DNA of 64,000 nucleotides from Candidatus Omnitrophota bacterium (GTDB lineage Bacteria > Omnitrophota > Gorgyraeia > JAZDFF01), in assembly GCA_043808095.1 (NCBI GenBank), contig JAZDFF010000040.1:1908-65907 (forward strand), in the 5' to 3' direction. Below the pieces are notes generated by a model that was given only the letters and a program-made list of their open reading frames with translations, had not been told where the DNA came from and made no database searches. Position 1 is the first letter of the stretch, and each line of letters begins with the position of its first letter. This document shows, piece after piece, positions 10,486 through 41,611 of this stretch. The position numbers and the translations under genes were made by a program.

Positions 10486-11949
10486 CTAGCCCTTTATTAC
10501 ACCTAAAGGCCTCATCCTGCAGACGCGTTTTGAAATGCCGGCATTATGCACTACATCTACCACATCATTTACATCTTTATAGGCCTGGGGCGCTTCTTCA
10601 ACAATAGTCCCCCGCCCGGTTGCCTTAACTGTAATGCCTTTTGATTCTAATTCCTTTAATAACGCACTCAAATCAATGGTTTTAAGCGCACCACTTCGGG
10701 ATTTAAGCCGGCCTGCGCCATGGCAGGTCGACCCGAAGGTCTCTTCCATTGCCTTTTGCGTACCCACTAAAAGATAGGAATTCCTGCCCATATCTCCGGG
10801 GATAATCACCGGCTGGCCGGTCTTTTTGTATCGGGCAGGTAATGCTGGATTTCCCGGGCCAAAGGCGCGCGTAGCGCCTTTTCTATGGATACATAGATTT
10901 TTCTCTTTACCGTCAACCGTATGCCTCTCCATCTTTGCGATATTATGGGCCACGTCATAAATTAAAAACATGCCCATATCCTGCCAGGAACGGTTAAAAA
11001 ACTTCTCAAATACCTCGCGGGTCAAATGCATCAGGCATTGCCGATTTGCCCAGGCGTAATTTGCCGCGCATCTCATGGCCCCAAAATAAGCCTTACCTTC
11101 GGACGAATTAACCGGAGCACAGGCAAGCTGCTTGTCCGGGACATTGATATTATATTTCGCCAGGCAATGAATCATGGTCTTGAGAGAGTCATCGCAGACC
11201 TGATAACCTAAGCCCCGTGAACCGGAATGTATCATAATCGTAATCTGGCCTTCGGTTAAGCCAAATTCATCGCAAAGATCGCGCTCATACAGCCGGTCAA
11301 TTACCTGGACCTCTATGAAATGATTTCCCGAGCCGAGTGTCCCGGATTGGGCCTTGCCTCTAACATAAGCCCTATCTGAAACTGCCGAAGGATCTGCTCC
11401 GGCAATTGCACCAAATTCTTCGGTACACTCTAAATCATCGCTAGTTCCGTAGCCTTTTTCAACCGCCCACTTTGCACCTTTTACTAAAATTTCTTTTTCT
11501 TCTCTGGTAGTGACCTTTATATCGCCTTTTGAACCTATACCTGTAGGTATGTCATTAAATAGGGCATAGACCAAATTCTTGATTTTATCTTTTATCTCAT
11601 CAAATTGAAAATTAGTTTTAAGGAGTCTTATCCCGCAATTTATGTCATAGCCCACGCCTCCGGGCGAAATTACTCCGCCTTCCTCAGGGTCAGTTGCCGC
11701 TACCCCTCCGATACAAAATCCATATCCCCAATGGATATCCGGCATAGCCAGGGAATAATTTACAATCCCCGGTAAAAATGCGACATTTGCCACCTGTTCC
11801 AGGGCTCTATCCTGGCGGATATCCTTTAGCAGTTTCTCATCGGCATAGATAATTCCCGGAACCCGCATTCCGGGTTTATAACTCTTGGGTATACGCCAAC
11901 GATAATCGTCAATCTTCTCTAATGGTACTTGCCCGATCTCAGACATCAA
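10486..11949 (-). CDS. rtcB: RNA-splicing ligase RtcB (3'-phosphate/5'-OH ligase).
   Basis: Conserved RtcB blocks are present: NCGIRLL, HSGSRGLG and CHGAGR. Confidence 0.92.
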   Translation of the reverse strand: MMSEIGQVPLEKIDDYRWRIPKSYKPGMRVPGIIYADEKLLKDIRQDRALEQVANVAFLPGIVNYSLAMPDIHWGYGFCIGGVAATDPEEGGVISPGGVGYDINCGIRLLKTNFQFDEIKDKIKNLVYALFNDIPTGIGSKGDIKVTTREEKEILVKGAKWAVEKGYGTSDDLECTEEFGAIAGADPSAVSDRAYVRGKAQSGTLGSGNHFIEVQVIDRLYERDLCDEFGLTEGQITIMIHSGSRGLGYQVCDDSLKTMIHCLAKYNINVPDKQLACAPVNSSEGKAYFGAMRCAANYAWANRQCLMHLTREVFEKFFNRSWQDMGMFLIYDVAHNIAKMERHTVDGKEKNLCIHRKGATRAFGPGNPALPARYKKTGQPVIIPGDMGRNSYLLVGTQKAMEETFGSTCHGAGRLKSRSGALKTIDLSALLKELESKGITVKATGRGTIVEEAPQAYKDVNDVVDVVHNAGISKRVCRMRPLGVIKG

Positions 11950-12364
11950 AAATCACCTCAGCCTGCCAACCTGATTTAAGTTCCCTTAATTGCAACTGGT
12001 GATAAGTAGCGGCCTTAATCTCAGTGTTTACTCTGTAATTATTCATATCTTCGCCAACGGCAGTTGCCTGCAGATTGTTTTTATCTAATTTTTCAATCTT
12101 AAAATCCGAGAAAATTAATTCTTTGGCGGCGGATAAAGAAAGTAATTCATTTAGCCAGTTTATGAAAAGCTCCTCTAAATTATCCGCCTTTTGTTTAACC
12201 GTGATATTTCTGGTATCTGGCATCTGGCATCTCGTATCTGGCTTTTTTTCAGCCATAATCTCAAACATTGCCGTGGCGGAATTTTTAAATAATTCTTTTA
12301 AATCTTTGGCCTTTACCCTGATACAGATATCGGCGGTGTGTTCGATTTGTTCGTAGTTTTTCAT
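11939..12364 (-). CDS. Archease, the RtcB activator.
   Basis: It has the N-terminal EHTADI motif. It overlaps the rtcB start as in archaeal and eukaryotic archease-RtcB pairs. It contains a short internal PDTR tandem duplication. Confidence 0.85.
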   Translation of the reverse strand: MKNYEQIEHTADICIRVKAKDLKELFKNSATAMFEIMAEKKPDTRCQMPDTRNITVKQKADNLEELFINWLNELLSLSAAKELIFSDFKIEKLDKNNLQATAVGEDMNNYRVNTEIKAATYHQLQLRELKSGWQAEVIFDV

Positions 12365-12503
12365 AACGCGAATTATCGCTAATCCCTGCCTGACGGTAGG
12401 CAGGAAACGCGAATTATCGTTAATATTATTAGCGTATATTTCCGCCGAAGGCGGATTAGCCTTTGGCTAAAGCGTTAGATTCGCGTAAATTAGCGTTTTT
12501 AAA

Positions 12504-12576
12504 TGAGCCGCGAAGGAATCGAACCTTCAACCCCCAGATTAAGAGTCTGATGCTCTACCGATTGAGCTAGCGGCCC
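12504..12576 (-). tRNA. tRNA-Lys(CUU).
   Basis: Reverse complement: GGGCCGC TA GCTC AATCGGTA GAGC A TCAGA CTCTTAA TCTGG GGGTT GAAGG TTCGATT CCTTC GCGGCTC A. Confidence 0.88.
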
Positions 12577-13240
12577 TTATTCTTTTTACGACACCCTCAA
12601 TCCAACCGAGTATTCTATATAAAAGATTCTTATCGCAGACTTCAATTTTTATTGTCCCTTGATATAAAATATTTTTGCGATGTCCCGTACCTTCTCTTTT
12701 AATATAACTTTTGCCAAATTGTAAAATTGGCAGACCAATTATATCTGACCAGAATTTTTTTATTTTTAATTCATCTTGTCCAGAATGAATATTGAGATAA
12801 ACTTTAAACCTCTCCTCAGGAATATTGCATATCTCCCTAAACCATCTCATCATAAAATGTATCAATTCGGGATCAGAATTAGAGACACCGACTCTATTCT
12901 TTTTATTTCCCTCTGCCCAATATAGCATTATACCAGCTAACTTAAATTCATTTTTGCTCAATAAATCGATGTCTAATTTTGCTTTTTCCTTGATTTCTAC
13001 AATCTCTTTATTTCTTCTTGCCTGCGTAGCTTTCGACCCAAGCAATCTCCCCCTATAACTGCCATCCTTAAAAAGCCTATCCAACCTATCTTTCTGCTTT
13101 GCCGTCAACTCTATATCCCTACACCAATCACTAATTGTACTTTTTGAGATACTGGACGGCATTCTCTGCCCTATCTCTTTATAACTCAAACCTTGCGATC
13201 TCAAGTTTCTAACTAACTTCTGTTTCCGCCAACTTTTCAT
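12539..13240 (-). CDS. Single-motif LAGLIDADG-like homing-endonuclease-family protein with an N-terminal HTH-like region.
   Basis: It has a LAGIMLYWAEGNK block and an HTH-like N-terminus (ISDWCRD) resembling the ORF at 3155..4159. The reading frame runs through the first 38 nt of tRNA-Lys and terminates at the UAA inside the tRNA anticodon loop. Confidence 0.5.
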   Translation of the reverse strand: MKSWRKQKLVRNLRSQGLSYKEIGQRMPSSISKSTISDWCRDIELTAKQKDRLDRLFKDGSYRGRLLGSKATQARRNKEIVEIKEKAKLDIDLLSKNEFKLAGIMLYWAEGNKKNRVGVSNSDPELIHFMMRWFREICNIPEERFKVYLNIHSGQDELKIKKFWSDIIGLPILQFGKSYIKREGTGHRKNILYQGTIKIEVCDKNLLYRILGWIEGVVKRIRAASSIGRASDS

Positions 13241-13329
13241 CGTTTAATATCTTCTACTCTGCCAACCCCGAATGAAATATTTCTGCGAAGTTATACTCCG
13301 GGACCCCGAAGCTTTACTTCTATGAATAA

Positions 13330-13346
13330 CTACATTCGGGATTGAG
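13330..13346 (-). repeat. A 16-17-nt duplicate of the tRNA-Lys(CUU) 5' end (GGGCCATTAGCTCAATC), located upstream of the LAGLIDADG-like gene.
   Basis: It matches positions 1-16 of the intact tRNA-Lys at 12576 with one mismatch and then diverges. Confidence 0.55.
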
Positions 13347-13620
13347 CTAATGGCCCGTTTGTCATATTTTAACACAGATTAGCACAGATGAAAAGAAACA
13401 GATTAGCACAGATGGAGGATAACAAAATACTTTTAAGCGTTTATTTTTCTGATAGATAGCCATTGTTACTCCCTCTCCCTCGACTTCGTCCTTCGACGCG
13501 CTCGCCTTTGGCGAGCTTGCTCAGGAAGACCCTGAGTTTGTCGAATGGGTCGCTCGGGATGGTGAGCGAAGTCGAACCACTAAACTGCTTAATTATTTTA
13601 TAATAAGACTGATAATAGCT

Positions 13621-14877
13621 TCATCGAATTTTTCTCAAAAATGGTTCCCAATTTAGTAAAAAGTCAACAATATCCTCAGCCATGCTGGCGTTTCCAACTT
13701 TATTAGGATGTGGATCAAAATTGTATCTTTGATACTGCCTTCGGGGCTCTATTAAAGAAATTTTGTTGCGTTCGCAAACTTCCTTCAAATCCCTCAAGGG
13801 TCTTTTTAAATCAATTAAATATTCTTGCCCTTTCCAAACTGAACGATCAACACCCCCCACTTGTTCTATTAAATTCCATCTCTCACTGAAGATTCTTAAA
13901 CCGTTTTCACCAGATTCTGAAAAAATTAAAAAGTCAGCATCTATCTTCTCGGAAATTTGTTTCATCTTAATACTTAAAACTTCAAATAAATCCCATGCCG
14001 ATAGCGATTCTTTTGAATGATTAAAAGAACTATGCCTATAAACTCCTTGGGGATTCATAAGAAAAGGTCCCCACTGAAACTTTATTTTTGCCATTTCTTC
14101 CTTAGAAAACCCCTTTACTTTCTCTTCATCTACCCTCTGCAGTGAAATCATTAATCTATTTTTTAATCTAATGGCGTGCCAAACTAAGGCACTTTTATTA
14201 AAAAAACTTCTTATTTTACTGGTTTCGGAAACTTTCTTAGTCTTGGGGTAAAGGTTAATTTTCTCTAACTTACCATCTATCATTTTGTATTTAAATACTT
14301 TGTTATTGTGTAATTTCGTAGAAATTCCTTTTTCGTATGGGAACAAAATTTCTTCGATATCATTTGCACAAAATTGATATATCACAATATCTGGCTGGTA
14401 TTTAATCCCCTCCCTACTTAATGCCTCCAATGCCTGATCAGTTGACCACCCCCCTACGCCTATGGTGATTACTTCAATATTGTCAAATCCTAATCTTTTA
14501 AATAATAGTTCTACTTTTCGAGTATACAAATCATCAATAGCCACAAAACCCCAAGTAATGGAATCACCCAAAAAAAGAATCCTGACAACGCCTTCAGGCT
14601 TTTCAAAGCTATGTTCCACATCCTTCCAACCTTGCGAATTAGTATAAAAATTTATTATTTCGTCAGTATCTGGATTGATAAATTGTATCCGACTGCGAGG
14701 TGGAGGCGCCCATCCGTAAATCTTAGCTTTTGGTGTTGCAGTTGTCCCAACGCCCACCTTTATCGGTGGTAATACATTCCAAAGAATAAACTCTATCACC
14801 AATAAGCTGATAAACACCGATATTGCAATAAGCAGTAAATTTTTGCTAATACTTTTAATCAAGAATCTATAGGCCAT
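13621..14877 (-). CDS. Membrane-anchored SGNH/GDSL-family hydrolase.
   Basis: It has an N-terminal TM helix and the GDSL block ILFLGDSITWGF. Confidence 0.7.
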   Translation of the reverse strand: MAYRFLIKSISKNLLLIAISVFISLLVIEFILWNVLPPIKVGVGTTATPKAKIYGWAPPPRSRIQFINPDTDEIINFYTNSQGWKDVEHSFEKPEGVVRILFLGDSITWGFVAIDDLYTRKVELLFKRLGFDNIEVITIGVGGWSTDQALEALSREGIKYQPDIVIYQFCANDIEEILFPYEKGISTKLHNNKVFKYKMIDGKLEKINLYPKTKKVSETSKIRSFFNKSALVWHAIRLKNRLMISLQRVDEEKVKGFSKEEMAKIKFQWGPFLMNPQGVYRHSSFNHSKESLSAWDLFEVLSIKMKQISEKIDADFLIFSESGENGLRIFSERWNLIEQVGGVDRSVWKGQEYLIDLKRPLRDLKEVCERNKISLIEPRRQYQRYNFDPHPNKVGNASMAEDIVDFLLNWEPFLRKIR

Positions 14878-15117
14878 AGACGCTTTATATAATTACCTAC
14901 ATTACAATGTGTTACAAAATAATTCCATAAAACTTTCATTATCGATTTCTTTCATAACTTAATGAAATATATAAAGTTAGATACAACACCTACGCTCCTG
15001 CCCAACCAACTATTAATTGTTTTTTATTCATTTAAACTGCTCCCTTCGACTCGGCTTCGCCTCGCTCAGGACTAAAAAGAGTCTTCGCTTTGGGGCGGAT
15101 TTGAATTTAACTATATT

Positions 15118-15804
15118 TCATCTATGTTCTTCAATTCCTTTTAATAATTGATTGACATAATCAAGATTACGCTGGTCTGCCAATTTAGTATATAACTCTT
15201 TTGCCTTTAATAAAACAGACTCTGCTGAATCATAATTATTAAGCATAATATAGGCATAGCCAAGATTTGAATAAATGAAAGATAAATGAACATCCTCTGG
15301 AATGCTGAGTGGTTTTAGCTGTGCTGCTTTCTCTAACGCCTTGACCGCTTCTGCATATTGTTGAGTTGTAACATATTCTTTCCCCAGATTTGAATACATC
15401 TCAGCATAGTTAGGATTCATCTCAATGGCTTTCTTATAATTCTTAATTGCCGAATCATAATCTTTCATTGAATTATAAACTGTTGCTAAATTACTATAAG
15501 CTTCAGTATAATTAGGATTTAAACTAATGGCTTTTTCGAAATTTTCTTTCGCTTTATCAAATTGGCTCAAAAATAAATAATTAATTCCTAGATTTAAGAA
15601 AACACCAGGGTCATCTGTTTTTAAAGCAACAGCCCTTTCCAAAAGCTCAATTGCTTTCCCATATGCTTTGTACTGATTTGTGTACACATAAGCTTCTTTT
15701 TTTAACTCTTGCACATTTTGGGTATTATCTGTTTCTGCAAATGCTACTGAAGACGCAAACAATAAAACAAAAAACAACAAAAACTTATTTTTCATATCCA
15801 TCAC
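15118..15804 (-). CDS. Secreted TPR-repeat protein.
   Basis: It has a signal peptide followed by tandem 34-residue TPR-like repeats. Confidence 0.75.
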   Translation of the reverse strand: MMDMKNKFLLFFVLLFASSVAFAETDNTQNVQELKKEAYVYTNQYKAYGKAIELLERAVALKTDDPGVFLNLGINYLFLSQFDKAKENFEKAISLNPNYTEAYSNLATVYNSMKDYDSAIKNYKKAIEMNPNYAEMYSNLGKEYVTTQQYAEAVKALEKAAQLKPLSIPEDVHLSFIYSNLGYAYIMLNNYDSAESVLLKAKELYTKLADQRNLDYVNQLLKGIEEHR

Positions 15805-16011
15805 ACCCTCCTTGTTATCTTCTTATTGCTACTTGCTACTCTCTACTCGCTACTTTACTCTATCTGTGCCCATCTTGTATCTCTTAATCTGTGATAATCT
15901 GTGTATTAAAAATGCGCCTAGCTGGTCTGCTTCGCTCAAATGTTTTCACTTTGAGCTCCGCAGAACCATTTCTACGAAGCTCCCGCATAAAAATGTTGGA
16001 GCGAAGTAGAA

Positions 16012-16034
16012 TGCGCCTGGCTGGACTCGAACCA
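16012..16034 (-). pseudogene. tRNA-Arg(ACG)-like T-loop and acceptor 3' fragment (GGTTCGAGTCCAGCCAGGCGCA) abutting tRNA-Arg(UCG).
   Basis: It matches positions 52-73 of tRNA-Arg(ACG) at 4801..4874, with T-loop variation. Confidence 0.5.
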
Positions 16035-16041
16035 ATTAAAA

Positions 16042-16115
16042 CGCCCCTGGAGGGAGTTGAACCCCCAACGCCTAGCTCCGAAGGCTAGCGCTCTATCCAG
16101 TTGAGCTACAGGGGC
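16042..16115 (-). tRNA. tRNA-Arg(UCG).
   Basis: Reverse complement: GCCCCTG TA GCTC AACTGGATA GAGC G CTAGC CTTCGGA GCTAG GCGTT GGGGG TTCAACT CCCTC CAGGGGC G. Confidence 0.85.
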
Positions 16116-40789: not shown

Positions 40790-41611
40790 TTACTCTAGTT
40801 CTTTAAGCGCCCTTTGGGCCTCTTCGGCAGTCGGTGCCCTGCCGTGAAAGTCTACTACATGCTCCATAAAAGAAACGCCTTTACCTTTTACCGTATGGGC
40901 AATTATGATCGTTGGTTTATCCTTAATCGTCTTGGCCTGGCTAAAGGCATCAAGGATCTGGGCGATATTATGTCCGTCTATCTCAATGGTATACCAGCCA
41001 AAGGCCTTCCATTTTTCCACTACCGGCTCAATATCCATAATGTCCTGGATTTTTCCGTCTATCTGGAAGCCATTGTAATCGAGCATAGCGCAAAGGTTAT
41101 CGCATTTAAAATGGGCTGCGGCCATGGCTGCCTCCCAGATATTGCCCTCTTGAATTTCCCCGTCTCCCATCAGACAATAAATATGGTAGTCCTTTTTATC
41201 GATTTTGGCAGCCAGACTCATCCCCAGCGCCACTGACAGACCCTGGCCTAAAGAACCGCTTGCTACATCTACTCCGCAAACGCCTCTGTCCGGATGACCT
41301 TGTAAGATACTGCCGAGTTTCCTTAAGGTCAGAAGTTCTTCTTTTTTGAAATATCCGCTCTCAGCTAAGACTGCATACCAGAGCGGACAACAATGTCCTT
41401 TAGAAAGATGAAACCTATCCCGGTCTGGCCAATCCGGTTTTTTCGGATCATGGCGCAATACCTTAAAATATAAGCAAGTAATTAAATCTGTAGCAGAAAG
41501 AGACCCGCCCGGATGACCAGAGCGAGCCTCGGCTAACATCTGGATAATCAGCCGGCGGATCTGTTTGGCTTTTGCCTCTAATAACTTGATGTCTTCTTTG
41601 GTATAACTCAT
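40790..41611 (-). CDS. Transketolase, N-terminal (TPP-binding) subunit.
   Basis: It has the TPP-binding motif GDGE..N and the HPGGSLS block. Confidence 0.88.
   Translation of the reverse strand: MSYTKEDIKLLEAKAKQIRRLIIQMLAEARSGHPGGSLSATDLITCLYFKVLRHDPKKPDWPDRDRFHLSKGHCCPLWYAVLAESGYFKKEELLTLRKLGSILQGHPDRGVCGVDVASGSLGQGLSVALGMSLAAKIDKKDYHIYCLMGDGEIQEGNIWEAAMAAAHFKCDNLCAMLDYNGFQIDGKIQDIMDIEPVVEKWKAFGWYTIEIDGHNIAQILDAFSQAKTIKDKPTIIIAHTVKGKGVSFMEHVVDFHGRAPTAEEAQRALKELE

What the first reader, a model, noticed from the sequence alone, without database searches (positions are those of the whole stretch)
12504..13346. LAGLIDADG-like ORF reads into tRNA-Lys(CUU) and stops in its anticodon loop, with a duplicated tRNA 5' end upstream.
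The 233-aa ORF's last 13 codons are encoded by tRNA-Lys positions 1-38, and its stop codon is the UAA of the anticodon loop (CUCUUAA). Upstream of the ORF, at 13330..13346, there is a 16-nt copy of the tRNA-Lys 5' end (GGGCCATTAGCTCAAT), so the ORF is bracketed by a direct repeat of the tRNA 5' end. That is the footprint expected if an endonuclease-bearing element inserted at the 5' portion of the tRNA gene and regenerated it. A gene-within-tRNA overlap of this kind is rare.
Basis: seen in the sequence. Interest (0 to 1): 0.65.

Follow-up and report, generated by a model that had tools for sequence, protein, structure and literature searches.

The report
Selfish endonuclease-like gene splitting a tRNA-Lys gene
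A probable selfish "homing endonuclease" gene sits between a leftover front piece of an old lysine-tRNA gene and a complete lysine-tRNA gene, and it belongs to a very large, unannotated protein family that is almost always found glued to the front of tRNA genes in Omnitrophota and Patescibacteria.

Summary
The ORF (12539..13240, minus strand), the tRNA-Lys(CUU) (12504..12576) and the stop codon inside the anticodon loop are all real. The upstream 16-mer is real too, but it lies at 13341..13356 and differs from the tRNA at 2 of 16 bases.

Comparison with 137 related loci changes the picture in five ways.
- The 16-mer is the start of a truncated older tRNA-Lys gene that runs to about tRNA position 33-38. 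It sits behind a promoter-like site and is split by a 74-nt hairpin.
- The ORF is absent from 54 of 62 syntenic tRNA-Arg/tRNA-Lys/archease loci, so empty sites are common.
- Its relationships disagree with those of the flanking host genes.
- In 53 of 55 loci, relatives end within -29 to +140 nt of the start of a same-strand tRNA (Lys, Arg, Met, Ala or Gly).
- The tRNA-encoded tail is read in all three frames, so the overlap is incidental read-through.

No intron model matches. The protein has an N-terminal HTH and a domain whose LYWAEGNK motif weakly matches I-DmoI, but neither Pfam nor Foldseek confirms a LAGLIDADG fold.

Best reading: an intron-less homing-endonuclease-like gene that broke the resident tRNA in its anticodon loop and is linked to a complete replacement tRNA. 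Nuclease activity, the cut site and allele immunity are inferred.

The parts
13366..13394 (-). Promoter-like site (TTTTCA, 17-nt spacer, TG-TAAAAT) about 10 nt upstream of the tRNA remnant. It probably drives the remnant, the ORF and the tRNA-Lys.
   Evidence: Consensus scan. A TTGCAA..N17..TAAAAT-type promoter lies in the same place in front of tRNA-Lys in empty sites and in front of the remnant in occupied sites. The function is inferred.
13341..13356 (-). Remnant part 1: GGGCCATTAGCTCAAT, positions 1-16 of an older tRNA-Lys allele of the 'GGGCCAT' type.
   Evidence: The identical 16-mer heads the remnant in L001, L003, L061, L078, L086, L089 and L122. In L086 it sits where the closely related empty locus L076 has its tRNA-Lys 5' end.
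13267..13340 (-). 74-nt extended hairpin (CCCGAATG...CATTCGGG) inserted into the D-loop of the remnant, at tRNA position 16/17.
   Evidence: Fold energy -39.6 kcal/mol, z = -5.1. It is absent from the remnants of L001, L078 and L086. A related sequence lies upstream of a radical-SAM gene in L094.
13241..13266 (-). Remnant part 2 and leader: GTTGGCAGAGTAGAAGATATTAAACG. This is a decayed tRNA-Lys segment (positions about 17-38: D-arm 3' side, anticodon-arm 5' side and loop), ending 0-3 nt before the ATG.
   Evidence: Comparison with the uninterrupted remnants GGGCCATTAGCTCAATTGGCAGAGCAGGACACTT-ATG (L001) and ...GCATCAGATTTCTAAAAAT-ATG (L078).
12539..13240 (-). 233-aa ORF: N-terminal HTH, a helical linker and a C-terminal LAGLIDADG-like domain. 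The conserved protein ends at about residue 220 (12581). The rest is read-through into the tRNA.
   Evidence: dN/dS against relatives is 0.06-0.15.
13109..13228 (-). Helix-turn-helix DNA-binding region (residues about 5-44).
   Evidence: Weak HTH_23 and HTH_WhiA hits in the window protein. Relatives hit HTH_23, HTH_38 and HTH_7 with E down to 1e-19.
12899..12940 (-). Core motif LAGIMLYWAEGNKK (residues 101-114). E110, G111 and K113 are invariant or nearly so across the family, and N121 and D123 follow shortly after.
   Evidence: Alignments A1, A2 and A5. The motif aligns with GLYVAEGDK (E117 region) of I-DmoI.
12504..12576 (-). Complete tRNA-Lys(CUU), allele with anticodon stem TCAGA/TCTGG and acceptor GGGCCGC/GCGGCTC. 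No CCA is encoded.
   Evidence: ARAGORN. Rfam RF00005, 69.5 bits against a gathering score of 29.
12539..12576 (-). Overlap of the ORF 3' end with tRNA positions 1-38. The stop codon is T36 A37 A38.
   Evidence: The reading frame into the tRNA differs among homologues.

Best explanation
The ORF is a free-standing (intron-less) homing-endonuclease-like gene that targets the tRNA-Lys(CUU) gene.

Shown here:
- The ORF is an insertion that is sporadically present at a conserved tRNA-Arg(UCG) / tRNA-Lys(CUU) / archease / RtcB locus.
- On its 5' side, behind a promoter-like site, lies a truncated tRNA-Lys that ends in the anticodon loop. In L086 the same fragment occupies the native tRNA position.
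- On its 3' side, with no spacer and no stop codon of its own, lies a complete tRNA-Lys of a different allele.
- The ORF is under purifying selection, and its relationships disagree with those of the flanking host genes.

Inferred:
- The protein (HTH plus a single LAGLIDADG-like domain) acts as a homodimer.
- It cuts ORF-free tRNA-Lys genes in the naturally palindromic anticodon arm.
- Repair copies the ORF and the linked tRNA from an occupied allele, using the tRNA halves as homology arms. This leaves the recipient's own 5' part (positions 1 to about 38) as the upstream remnant.
- The linked tRNA carries a different anticodon-stem sequence, which may make it immune to the enzyme.
- The remnant, the ORF and the tRNA are probably co-transcribed from the tRNA promoter.
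- Reading into the tRNA happens because the coding sequence abuts tRNA position +1.
- RNase P cleavage would then remove the stop codon from the message, which could keep the protein scarce. This last point is speculation.
For: Family-wide adjacency to tRNAs:
- In 53 of 55 loci, the ORF or its relatives stop within -29 to +140 nt of the 5' end of a same-strand tRNA. This holds for 46 of 48 species-representative genomes.
- The tRNAs in those genomes are Lys-CTT 11, Arg-CCT 27, Met-CAT 4, Ala-GGC 2, Gly-GCC 1 and Arg-TCG 1.

Empty sites:
- Of 62 archease-anchored syntenic loci with enough upstream sequence, 54 lack the ORF and 8 have it.
- No pseudogene traces were found in the empty spacers.

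The remnant is the resident tRNA:
- Occupied L086 and empty L076 are 96% identical from tRNA-Arg through nt 26 of tRNA-Lys.
- The ORF is then present only in L086, and the downstream flank is only 85% identical.
- Remnants in 11 of 17 occupied Omnitrophota loci run from position 1 to about 33-38 and are followed directly by the ATG.
- In the distant Arg-CCT subfamily, three remnants end at position 36-37.

Linkage and transfer:
- The ORF subclade L003/L061/L089 always carries the ATTCC tRNA allele.
- L086 and L089 have 83% identical archease but 60% identical ORFs and different tRNA alleles.
- L122 and L011 have 82% identical ORFs but 56% identical archease.

Allele pattern:
- The anticodon-stem allele GGACA is in 27 of 54 empty sites and 0 of 17 occupied sites (Fisher p = 9e-5).
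- GGACA is nevertheless the allele of the remnants in L001, L061 and L070.

Protein:
- dN/dS is 0.06-0.15.
- 5,349 clusters at 50% identity match the family profile.
- The family has an N-terminal HTH.
- LYWAEGNK aligns with the I-DmoI catalytic motif.
- Tandem two-domain members exist, as in LAGLIDADG enzymes. One of them lies 80 nt upstream of a tRNA-Gln.

Other:
- No intron model matches.
- A promoter-like site lies upstream of the remnant, and no terminator-like site was found anywhere in 11900..13700, so none separates the remnant from the archease gene.
Against: - Nuclease activity is not shown.
- No Pfam LAGLIDADG hit was found in 77 members scanned.
- Foldseek of two good AlphaFold models (pLDDT 86 and 84) against the PDB finds no LAGLIDADG enzyme. 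The predicted order of elements (alpha-beta-alpha-beta-alpha-beta-beta-alpha) is not the canonical alpha-beta-beta-alpha-beta-beta-alpha.
- The downstream tRNA is intact, so a cut site in the anticodon arm would still be present unless that allele is resistant. Resistance is only suggested by allele statistics from non-independent loci.
- In L078 the remnant and the functional tRNA share the same anticodon-stem strand (TCAGA).
- The data cannot strictly tell which of the two tRNA 5' copies came in with the ORF.
- Most distant (Patescibacteria) loci show no remnant (8 of 50 loci with p <= 0.01, two of them hits to a neighbouring tRNA-Arg).
Confidence: 0.68

Rival explanations
1. Same mobile ORF, opposite polarity. 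In this reading the element is [partial tRNA copy + ORF], inserted exactly at position -1/+1 in front of the native tRNA-Lys. The upstream fragment is then foreign, a homology arm or part of the element, and the downstream tRNA is the original host gene.
For: - The final structure is the same under both models.
- The remnant's first 16-26 nt are identical in loci whose ORFs are saturated at synonymous sites, as if they travelled with the element.
- The window's tRNA allele (TCAGA, GGGCCGC) also occurs in ORF-free loci L077, L079, L084 and L085.
- In L078 the downstream tRNA is identical to that of empty L079.
Against: - In L086 the remnant is contiguous with the 96%-identical upstream flank shared with empty L076. 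The ORF, the tRNA and the downstream flank are the diverged part.
- The truncation point at the anticodon loop recurs in an unrelated tRNA (Arg-CCT). That has no meaning if insertion is at +1.
- ORF subclades track the downstream tRNA allele.
Confidence: 0.14
2. The ORF is a resident, non-mobile DNA-binding protein (an HTH regulator or a WhiA-like degenerate LAGLIDADG protein). On this view it is co-transcribed with tRNA genes and repeatedly lost, and the tRNA fragments are unrelated debris from a recombination-prone tRNA locus.
For: - The only confident domain is an HTH.
- The structure search does not confirm a nuclease fold.
- tRNA-derived fragments and hairpin repeats also occur at ORF-free loci.
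- Purifying selection is strong.
Against: - The ORF is present in only 8 of 62 syntenic loci.
- It is associated with six different tRNA identities across two phyla.
- Its relationships are incongruent with the flanking archease.
- The remnant truncation coincides with the ORF start.
- The acidic residue of the motif is conserved.
Confidence: 0.1
3. It is an intron or split-tRNA arrangement. The upstream fragment would be a 5' exon, and the ORF-bearing segment would be removed at the RNA level (group I self-splicing, or endonuclease plus the neighbouring RtcB/archease ligase).
For: - The break point lies at or next to the canonical tRNA intron position (37/38).
- RtcB and archease lie directly downstream.
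- The best sequence match, I-DmoI, is encoded in an archaeal intron (my own knowledge).
Against: - A complete, high-scoring tRNA follows the ORF.
- No group I or group II model matches at E <= 10 in the window region, or at E <= 0.1 in six occupied loci.
- The window remnant has a decayed anticodon arm and an A6 that would mismatch C67.
- Remnants are missing in many ORF-bearing loci.
- The tRNA-Lys/archease/RtcB synteny is the same in ORF-free loci.
Confidence: 0.03

Closest known systems
Free-standing homing endonucleases with intron-less homing, especially phage T4 SegB in the tRNA gene cluster (PMC2330249; review PMC3984707)
   Same: - The endonuclease gene is not protected by an intron or intein.
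- It sits among tRNA genes and targets tRNA gene sequence.
[quoted passage not shown]
- Flanking tRNA genes are co-inherited with it.
   Different: - SegB is a GIY-YIG enzyme of a phage that recognises the T-psi-C stem-loop and lies between genes.
- Here the host is cellular (Omnitrophota) and the protein is HTH plus a LAGLIDADG-like domain.
- The resident tRNA is left truncated at the anticodon loop, and a full tRNA directly abuts the ORF.
- Activity is untested.
[quoted passage not shown]
   Same: - It is a bacterial homing endonuclease whose target is the anticodon stem-loop of a tRNA gene.
- Its insertion point is in the anticodon loop.
   Different: - I-Ssp6803I is a PD-(D/E)XK enzyme inside a self-splicing intron, so the tRNA is restored by RNA splicing.
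- Here no intron is detectable.
- tRNA function is provided by a second, complete gene copy.
LAGLIDADG homing endonucleases such as I-DmoI and the single-domain enzymes in rRNA insertions of CPR bacteria (PMC11270868)
   Same: - The motif helix ends in A-E-G followed by K, as in I-DmoI LYVAEGDK.
- Both single-domain and tandem two-domain forms exist.
- The family occurs in Patescibacteria and spreads horizontally into conserved RNA genes.
   Different: - No Pfam LAGLIDADG_1, _2 or _3 hit and no Foldseek match.
- There is an extra helix and a different predicted strand order.
- There is an N-terminal HTH.
- The target is a tRNA rather than an rRNA, and no intron is present.
'Fractured genes': homing endonuclease genes inserted between halves of a split host gene (PMC2677866)
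   Same: A homing endonuclease gene sits inside an essential gene without an intron, and the host function is rescued by another device.
   Different: In fractured genes the rescue is by split inteins at the protein level. Here the rescue is by a duplicate or replacement RNA gene.
Integrase-borne genomic islands that insert into tRNA genes and restore them with an element-borne copy of the tRNA end (my own knowledge)
   Same: The element is flanked by a direct repeat of part of a tRNA gene, and the tRNA stays functional.
   Different: - Such islands usually use the tRNA 3' end, encode a tyrosine or serine integrase, and are kilobases long.
- Here the unit is 0.8 kb with no integrase.
- It is the 5' part up to the anticodon loop that is duplicated.

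Membership tests
LAGLIDADG homing endonuclease (protein family) | A conserved motif helix ending in an acidic residue followed by Gly (…ADG/…AEG) that supplies the catalytic carboxylate | tested here: met
   LAGIMLYWAEGNKK. E110 and G111 are invariant, and Y107 and K113 are invariant or nearly so, in alignments A1, A2 and A5. The motif aligns with the I-DmoI GLYVAEGDK region. The match is at motif level only, with E about 1e-3.
LAGLIDADG homing endonuclease (protein family) | Significant match to curated family models (Pfam LAGLIDADG_1, _2 or _3) | tested here: not met
   No such hit for the window protein or for 41 and 36 diverse relatives. NCBIfam also gives nothing.
LAGLIDADG homing endonuclease (protein family) | An alpha-beta-beta-alpha-beta-beta-alpha core fold resembling solved enzymes | tested here: inconclusive
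LAGLIDADG homing endonuclease (protein family) | Functions as a homodimer of single domains or as a tandem two-domain monomer | tested here: inconclusive
   Tandem [HTH-domain]x2 members exist (P0183, P0234, P0239, P0258). This is consistent with the feature, but oligomeric state was not tested.
LAGLIDADG homing endonuclease (protein family) | Site-specific double-strand DNA cleavage with 4-nt 3' overhangs | not testable with these tools
   Needs biochemistry.
Free-standing homing endonuclease gene (intron-less homing) | Sporadic presence at an otherwise conserved, syntenic site, so that empty sites exist | tested here: met
   8 occupied against 54 empty tRNA-Arg/tRNA-Lys/archease loci. No pseudogene traces in the empty spacers.
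Free-standing homing endonuclease gene (intron-less homing) | Horizontal spread, seen as gene relationships incongruent with host flanks | tested here: met
   Identity matrices for the ORF and for archease disagree. Examples: L122/L011 are 82% (ORF) against 56% (archease). L086/L089 are 60% against 83%. The upstream and downstream flanks of L086 differ in identity to L076 (96% against 85%). The matrices are pairwise identities, not a formal reconciliation.
Free-standing homing endonuclease gene (intron-less homing) | Not embedded in a self-splicing intron or an intein | tested here: met
   Only tRNA models match in the window region at E <= 10 and in six occupied loci at E <= 0.1. The ORF is not in frame within a host protein.
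Free-standing homing endonuclease gene (intron-less homing) | The enzyme cleaves the ORF-less allele at or near the insertion point, and the occupied allele is immune | not testable with these tools
   There are only indirect hints. Remnants end at the anticodon loop. The GGACA allele is common in empty sites and absent next to the ORF.
tRNA intron (group I, or bulge-helix-bulge spliced by endonuclease and RtcB) | The tRNA is interrupted, and a mature tRNA can form only after the intervening sequence is removed | tested here: not met
   An uninterrupted tRNA-Lys, 73 nt and 69.5 bits, follows the ORF.
tRNA intron (group I, or bulge-helix-bulge spliced by endonuclease and RtcB) | A ribozyme core or a splicing motif is present | tested here: not met
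   No Rfam intron family matched. The window remnant has a decayed anticodon arm. The bulge-helix-bulge motif was not searched for formally.
Integrase-mediated tRNA-targeting island | Encodes a site-specific recombinase and is flanked by att repeats derived from the tRNA 3' end | tested here: not met
   The 0.8-kb unit holds one ORF with no recombinase domain. The repeat is the tRNA 5' part.

The most novel reading that the evidence does not exclude
This would be a previously undescribed way for a selfish endonuclease gene to live inside an essential RNA gene without an intron.

- It breaks the resident tRNA in the anticodon loop and brings its own complete, cleavage-resistant tRNA allele.
- It thereby drives rapid turnover of tRNA alleles (anticodon-stem variants) and litters tRNA loci with fragments across Omnitrophota and Patescibacteria.
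- The family of at least 5,349 clusters would then be a new, tRNA-specialised branch of LAGLIDADG-like enzymes.
- The covarying 'hairpin units' that mimic the tRNA 5' end may be part of the same conflict.
Probability: 0.35. Interest if true: 0.78.

Novelty: new variant of a known kind. Interest (0 to 1): 0.6.

Why it matters
- It would give a function and a genomic rule ("always at the 5' end of a tRNA gene") to a very large protein family with no Pfam or NCBIfam hit outside its HTH. The family has 5,349 clusters at 50% identity.
- It would explain why tRNA loci in these uncultivated phyla carry tRNA fragments, variable alleles and ORFs that gene callers extend into tRNAs.
- It would add a fourth way, besides introns, inteins and intergenic sites, for homing endonuclease genes to avoid killing their host: a linked spare copy of the target.
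- If the enzymes are active, they are a ready-made set of nucleases with long, tRNA-gene-specific targets.
- Their arms race with tRNA anticodon-stem sequences could be tested directly.

Tried and rejected
- **Intron hypothesis.** Rfam found only tRNA, both at E <= 10 on 11900..13700 and at E <= 0.1 on six occupied loci. Rejected.
- **Pfam, NCBIfam and PDB sequence searches with the single protein or the close-homologue profile.** None gave anything for the C-terminal domain. Only broader profiles reached I-DmoI, and only weakly.
- **Ungapped search for upstream tRNA copies.** It missed most remnants. Gapped alignment and direct reading were needed.
- **Search for decayed ORF copies in long ORF-free spacers.** None found.
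- **A second family member in the window.** The weak tblastn hit at 41255..41551 lies inside a transketolase-like gene and is chance.
- **Functional link between the ORF and archease/RtcB.** Rejected, because the tRNA-Lys/archease/RtcB synteny is the same in ORF-free loci, and the ORF also occurs with other neighbours (L005, L012).
- **Integrase-type island.** No recombinase is present.
- **Literature.** Five searches found no description of this family or arrangement.
Full report
**1. What is in the window**

On the minus strand the order is as follows.
- A promoter-like site (13394..13366).
- GGGCCATTAGCTCAAT (13356..13341).
- A 74-nt extended hairpin (13340..13267; z = -5.1).
- GTTGGCAGAGTAGAAGATATTAAACG (13266..13241).
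- A 233-aa ORF (13240..12539).
- tRNA-Lys(CUU) (12576..12504; ARAGORN; Rfam 69.5 bits).
- Archease (12364..11939) and RtcB (11949..10486).

It differs from the tRNA's own 5' end at positions 6 and 7 (AT against GC).

**2. The ORF is a real, conserved gene of a very large family**
- The first search returned 1,249 homologues. The named ones are from Omnitrophota MAGs.
- A profile search of 1.84 billion representative proteins gave 5,349 clusters at E <= 1e-3.
- dN/dS against relatives is 0.06-0.15, with synonymous sites saturated.
- There is no Pfam or NCBIfam family for the C-terminal domain. The N-terminus is an HTH.

**3. The tRNA overlap is incidental**

In alignment A1 the conserved protein ends about 6-8 residues after LGWIEG. 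The tails are the tRNA translated in three different frames: RAISSxGRAxDS*, GPLAQLxEQ..., and GH*.

The stop codon, relative to tRNA position +1, is most often one of these:
- +10, which is U8-A9-G10 read as TAG.
- +38, which is positions 36-38 read as TAA.
- A few nucleotides upstream of the tRNA.

So the gene simply has no spacer and often no stop of its own.

**4. The family rule**

In 53 of 55 loci (46 of 48 species-representative genomes from Omnitrophota, Patescibacteria and a few other bins) the ORF ends within -29 to +140 nt of the start of a same-strand tRNA.

| tRNA next to the ORF | Genomes |
|---|---|
| Lys-CTT (closest relatives, 37-71% identity) | 11 |
| Arg-CCT | 27 |
| Met-CAT | 4 |
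| Ala-GGC | 2 |
| Gly-GCC | 1 |
| Arg-TCG | 1 |

. A tandem two-domain member lies 80 nt upstream of a tRNA-Gln.

**5. Empty sites**

I anchored on the archease gene and fetched 80 metagenome loci.
- The tRNA-Arg(TCG) / tRNA-Lys(CTT) / archease order is conserved.
- Only 8 of the 62 informative loci contain the ORF.
- No decayed copies were found in the others.

**6. What the upstream copy is**

In 11 of 17 occupied Omnitrophota loci the ATG is preceded by a truncated tRNA-Lys. Examples:
- L001: GGGCCATTAGCTCAATTGGCAGAGCAGGACACTT-ATG.
- L078: ...GCATCAGATTTCTAAAAAT-ATG.
- L010: ...AATCTTAAACT-ATG.

The window copy is the same thing, split by the hairpin at D-loop position 16/17. L061 has a different 20-nt palindrome in its D-loop.

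These fragments sit where the tRNA sits in empty sites, behind a promoter-like TTGCAA-N17-TAAAAT sequence. Occupied L086 and empty L076 are 96% identical from tRNA-Arg to nt 26 of tRNA-Lys. The ORF is then present only in L086, and the downstream flank is only 85% identical.

In the distant Arg-CCT subfamily, three loci keep remnants that end at position 36-37.

The break point is therefore the anticodon loop, and the duplicated segment is about 38 nt, not 16.

**7. The ORF is linked to a tRNA allele**

The tRNA-Lys genes in these loci fall into alleles that differ mainly in stem sequences, with compensatory changes.
- Remnants in L001, L061 and L070 are of the GGACA type. The complete tRNAs behind the same ORFs are TCTGA, ATTCC and TCTGC.
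- The ORF subclade L003/L061/L089 always carries ATTCC.
- L086 and L089 have the most similar archease of the set (83%) but the least similar ORFs (60%) and different tRNA alleles.
- L122 and L011 show the reverse: 82% ORF identity against 56% archease identity.
- GGACA is found in 27 of 54 empty sites and in 0 of 17 occupied sites (p = 9e-5). The loci are not independent, so this is a hint only.
- L007 is an exception and was not among the 17 counted. A GGACA tRNA follows the ORF there, but it is itself cut at position 38/39 by another repeated sequence.

**8. The protein**

*AlphaFold models*
- The models are confident (pLDDT 85.7 and 83.9).
- They show an HTH, a long helix, and then an alpha/beta domain.

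*Sequence evidence for LAGLIDADG*
- Two independent family profiles put I-DmoI first among hits to the C-terminal domain. Both align LYWAEGNK..N.D with LYVAEGDK (E = 1.3e-3 to 7e-3).
- hhalign gives 71% probability.
- E110, G111, K113, N121 and D123 are invariant or nearly so.
- Tandem two-domain members exist.

*Structural evidence against*
- Foldseek finds no LAGLIDADG structure, and the predicted strand order is not canonical.

I therefore call the protein LAGLIDADG-like, with family membership not established.

**9. Mechanism proposed (inferred)**
- A homodimer recognises the palindromic anticodon arm of ORF-free tRNA-Lys genes and cuts in the loop.
- Repair from an occupied allele uses tRNA positions 1 to about 38 (the remnant) and the tRNA 3' part or flank as homology arms.
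- The recipient's own 5' part remains as the remnant. The ORF and its linked, possibly resistant, tRNA allele are copied in.
- Each new invasion creates a fresh remnant from a conserved tRNA. This explains why remnants look well preserved although the ORFs are old.

The closest functional precedents are:
- T4 SegB, a free-standing enzyme in a tRNA cluster that targets tRNA genes (PMC2330249).
- The anticodon-specific, intron-encoded endonuclease of cyanobacterial tRNA-fMet genes (cited in PMC3984707).
- The single-domain LAGLIDADG enzymes of CPR rRNA insertions (PMC11270868).

I found no description of this family or arrangement in five literature searches.

**10. Verdict**
- The thing is a new variant of a known kind, an intron-less homing-endonuclease-like gene. 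Its unusual feature is that it tolerates residence in an essential tRNA gene by carrying a spare.
- Nuclease activity, the cut site and allele immunity remain to be shown.

Noticed in passing
L062 2284-2418; L098 288-465; L066 2292-2417; L001 2904-2946; 27 units in 21 loci (none in the window): Hairpin units of about 45-55 nt lie in 1-3 tandem copies in the leader of tRNA-Lys, in both ORF-free and ORF-bearing loci. Each starts with a copy of the tRNA 5' end (GGGCCATTAGCTCA), holds a variable inner hairpin, and ends with TTTCGCTAATGG, which pairs back to the 5' copy. RNAalifold finds 13 pairs, 8 of them with compensatory changes. The outer stem covaries with the local tRNA allele (GCTAGCG where the tRNA starts GGGCCGC). 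In L010 and L061 the ORF abuts such a unit instead of the tRNA. The function is unknown.
   Followed up: partly
window 16010..16041 (-), just downstream of tRNA-Arg(TCG) 16042..16115; also L001 2705-2790 and L079 2100-2320: A 3' fragment of another tRNA-Arg allele (TTGGTTCGAGTCCAGCCAGGCGCA) follows the intact tRNA-Arg(TCG). Larger tRNA-Arg-like pieces with insertions occur at the same place in related loci. A family member sits in front of tRNA-Arg(TCG) in L019, so this neighbour may have a similar history.
   Followed up: no
L007 4663-4792 and L021 4845-4895 (same MAG, PCRK01): The tRNA-Lys (GGACA allele) that follows the ORF in L007 is itself interrupted after position 38/39 (...CTCTTAAT|TAGAAACGGTAGATTCAAATTGCTAACGC...). 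The same foreign sequence ends the other contig next to a paralogous ORF. A second repeated element seems to use the same anticodon-loop site.
   Followed up: no
window 13267..13340 (-); L094 728-790; L061 remnant: Small palindromic inserts lie inside the dead tRNA remnants: 74 nt in the window and 20 nt (CCTGTCTGCCGGCAGGCAGG) in L061. The window hairpin has a relative upstream of a radical-SAM gene in L094, which suggests a small dispersed hairpin repeat.
   Followed up: partly
window 10486..12576 (-) and L055-L134: tRNA-Lys(CUU), archease and RtcB form a conserved block in this clade, with or without the ORF, usually just after tRNA-Arg(UCG). An RNA-repair ligase operon tied to one particular tRNA is curious in its own right.
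   Followed up: no
L001 4314-6699; L003 4290-6675: In relatives the RtcB gene carries an intein with faint Pfam LAGLIDADG_3 hits (products of 1405 and 897 residues). The window RtcB (487 aa) has no intein. This would be a second homing-type element in the same neighbourhood.
   Followed up: no
window 13621..16041 (-): In the window, tRNA-Arg(UCG) and the tRNA-Lys remnant are about 2.7 kb apart, and the gap holds a GDSL-lipase-like gene and a TPR-repeat-looking gene. In most relatives the gap is 60-300 nt. This is another sign that the inter-tRNA spacer is a hot spot for insertions.
   Followed up: no
P0183, P0234, P0239, P0258; L135 1501-3251; L136 1497-3227: High-GC relatives are tandem fusions of two [HTH + domain] units (441-576 aa). 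P0234 lies 80 nt upstream of tRNA-Gln(UUG). P0239 reads into a tRNA-Gln-like gene that ARAGORN calls on the opposite strand.
   Followed up: partly
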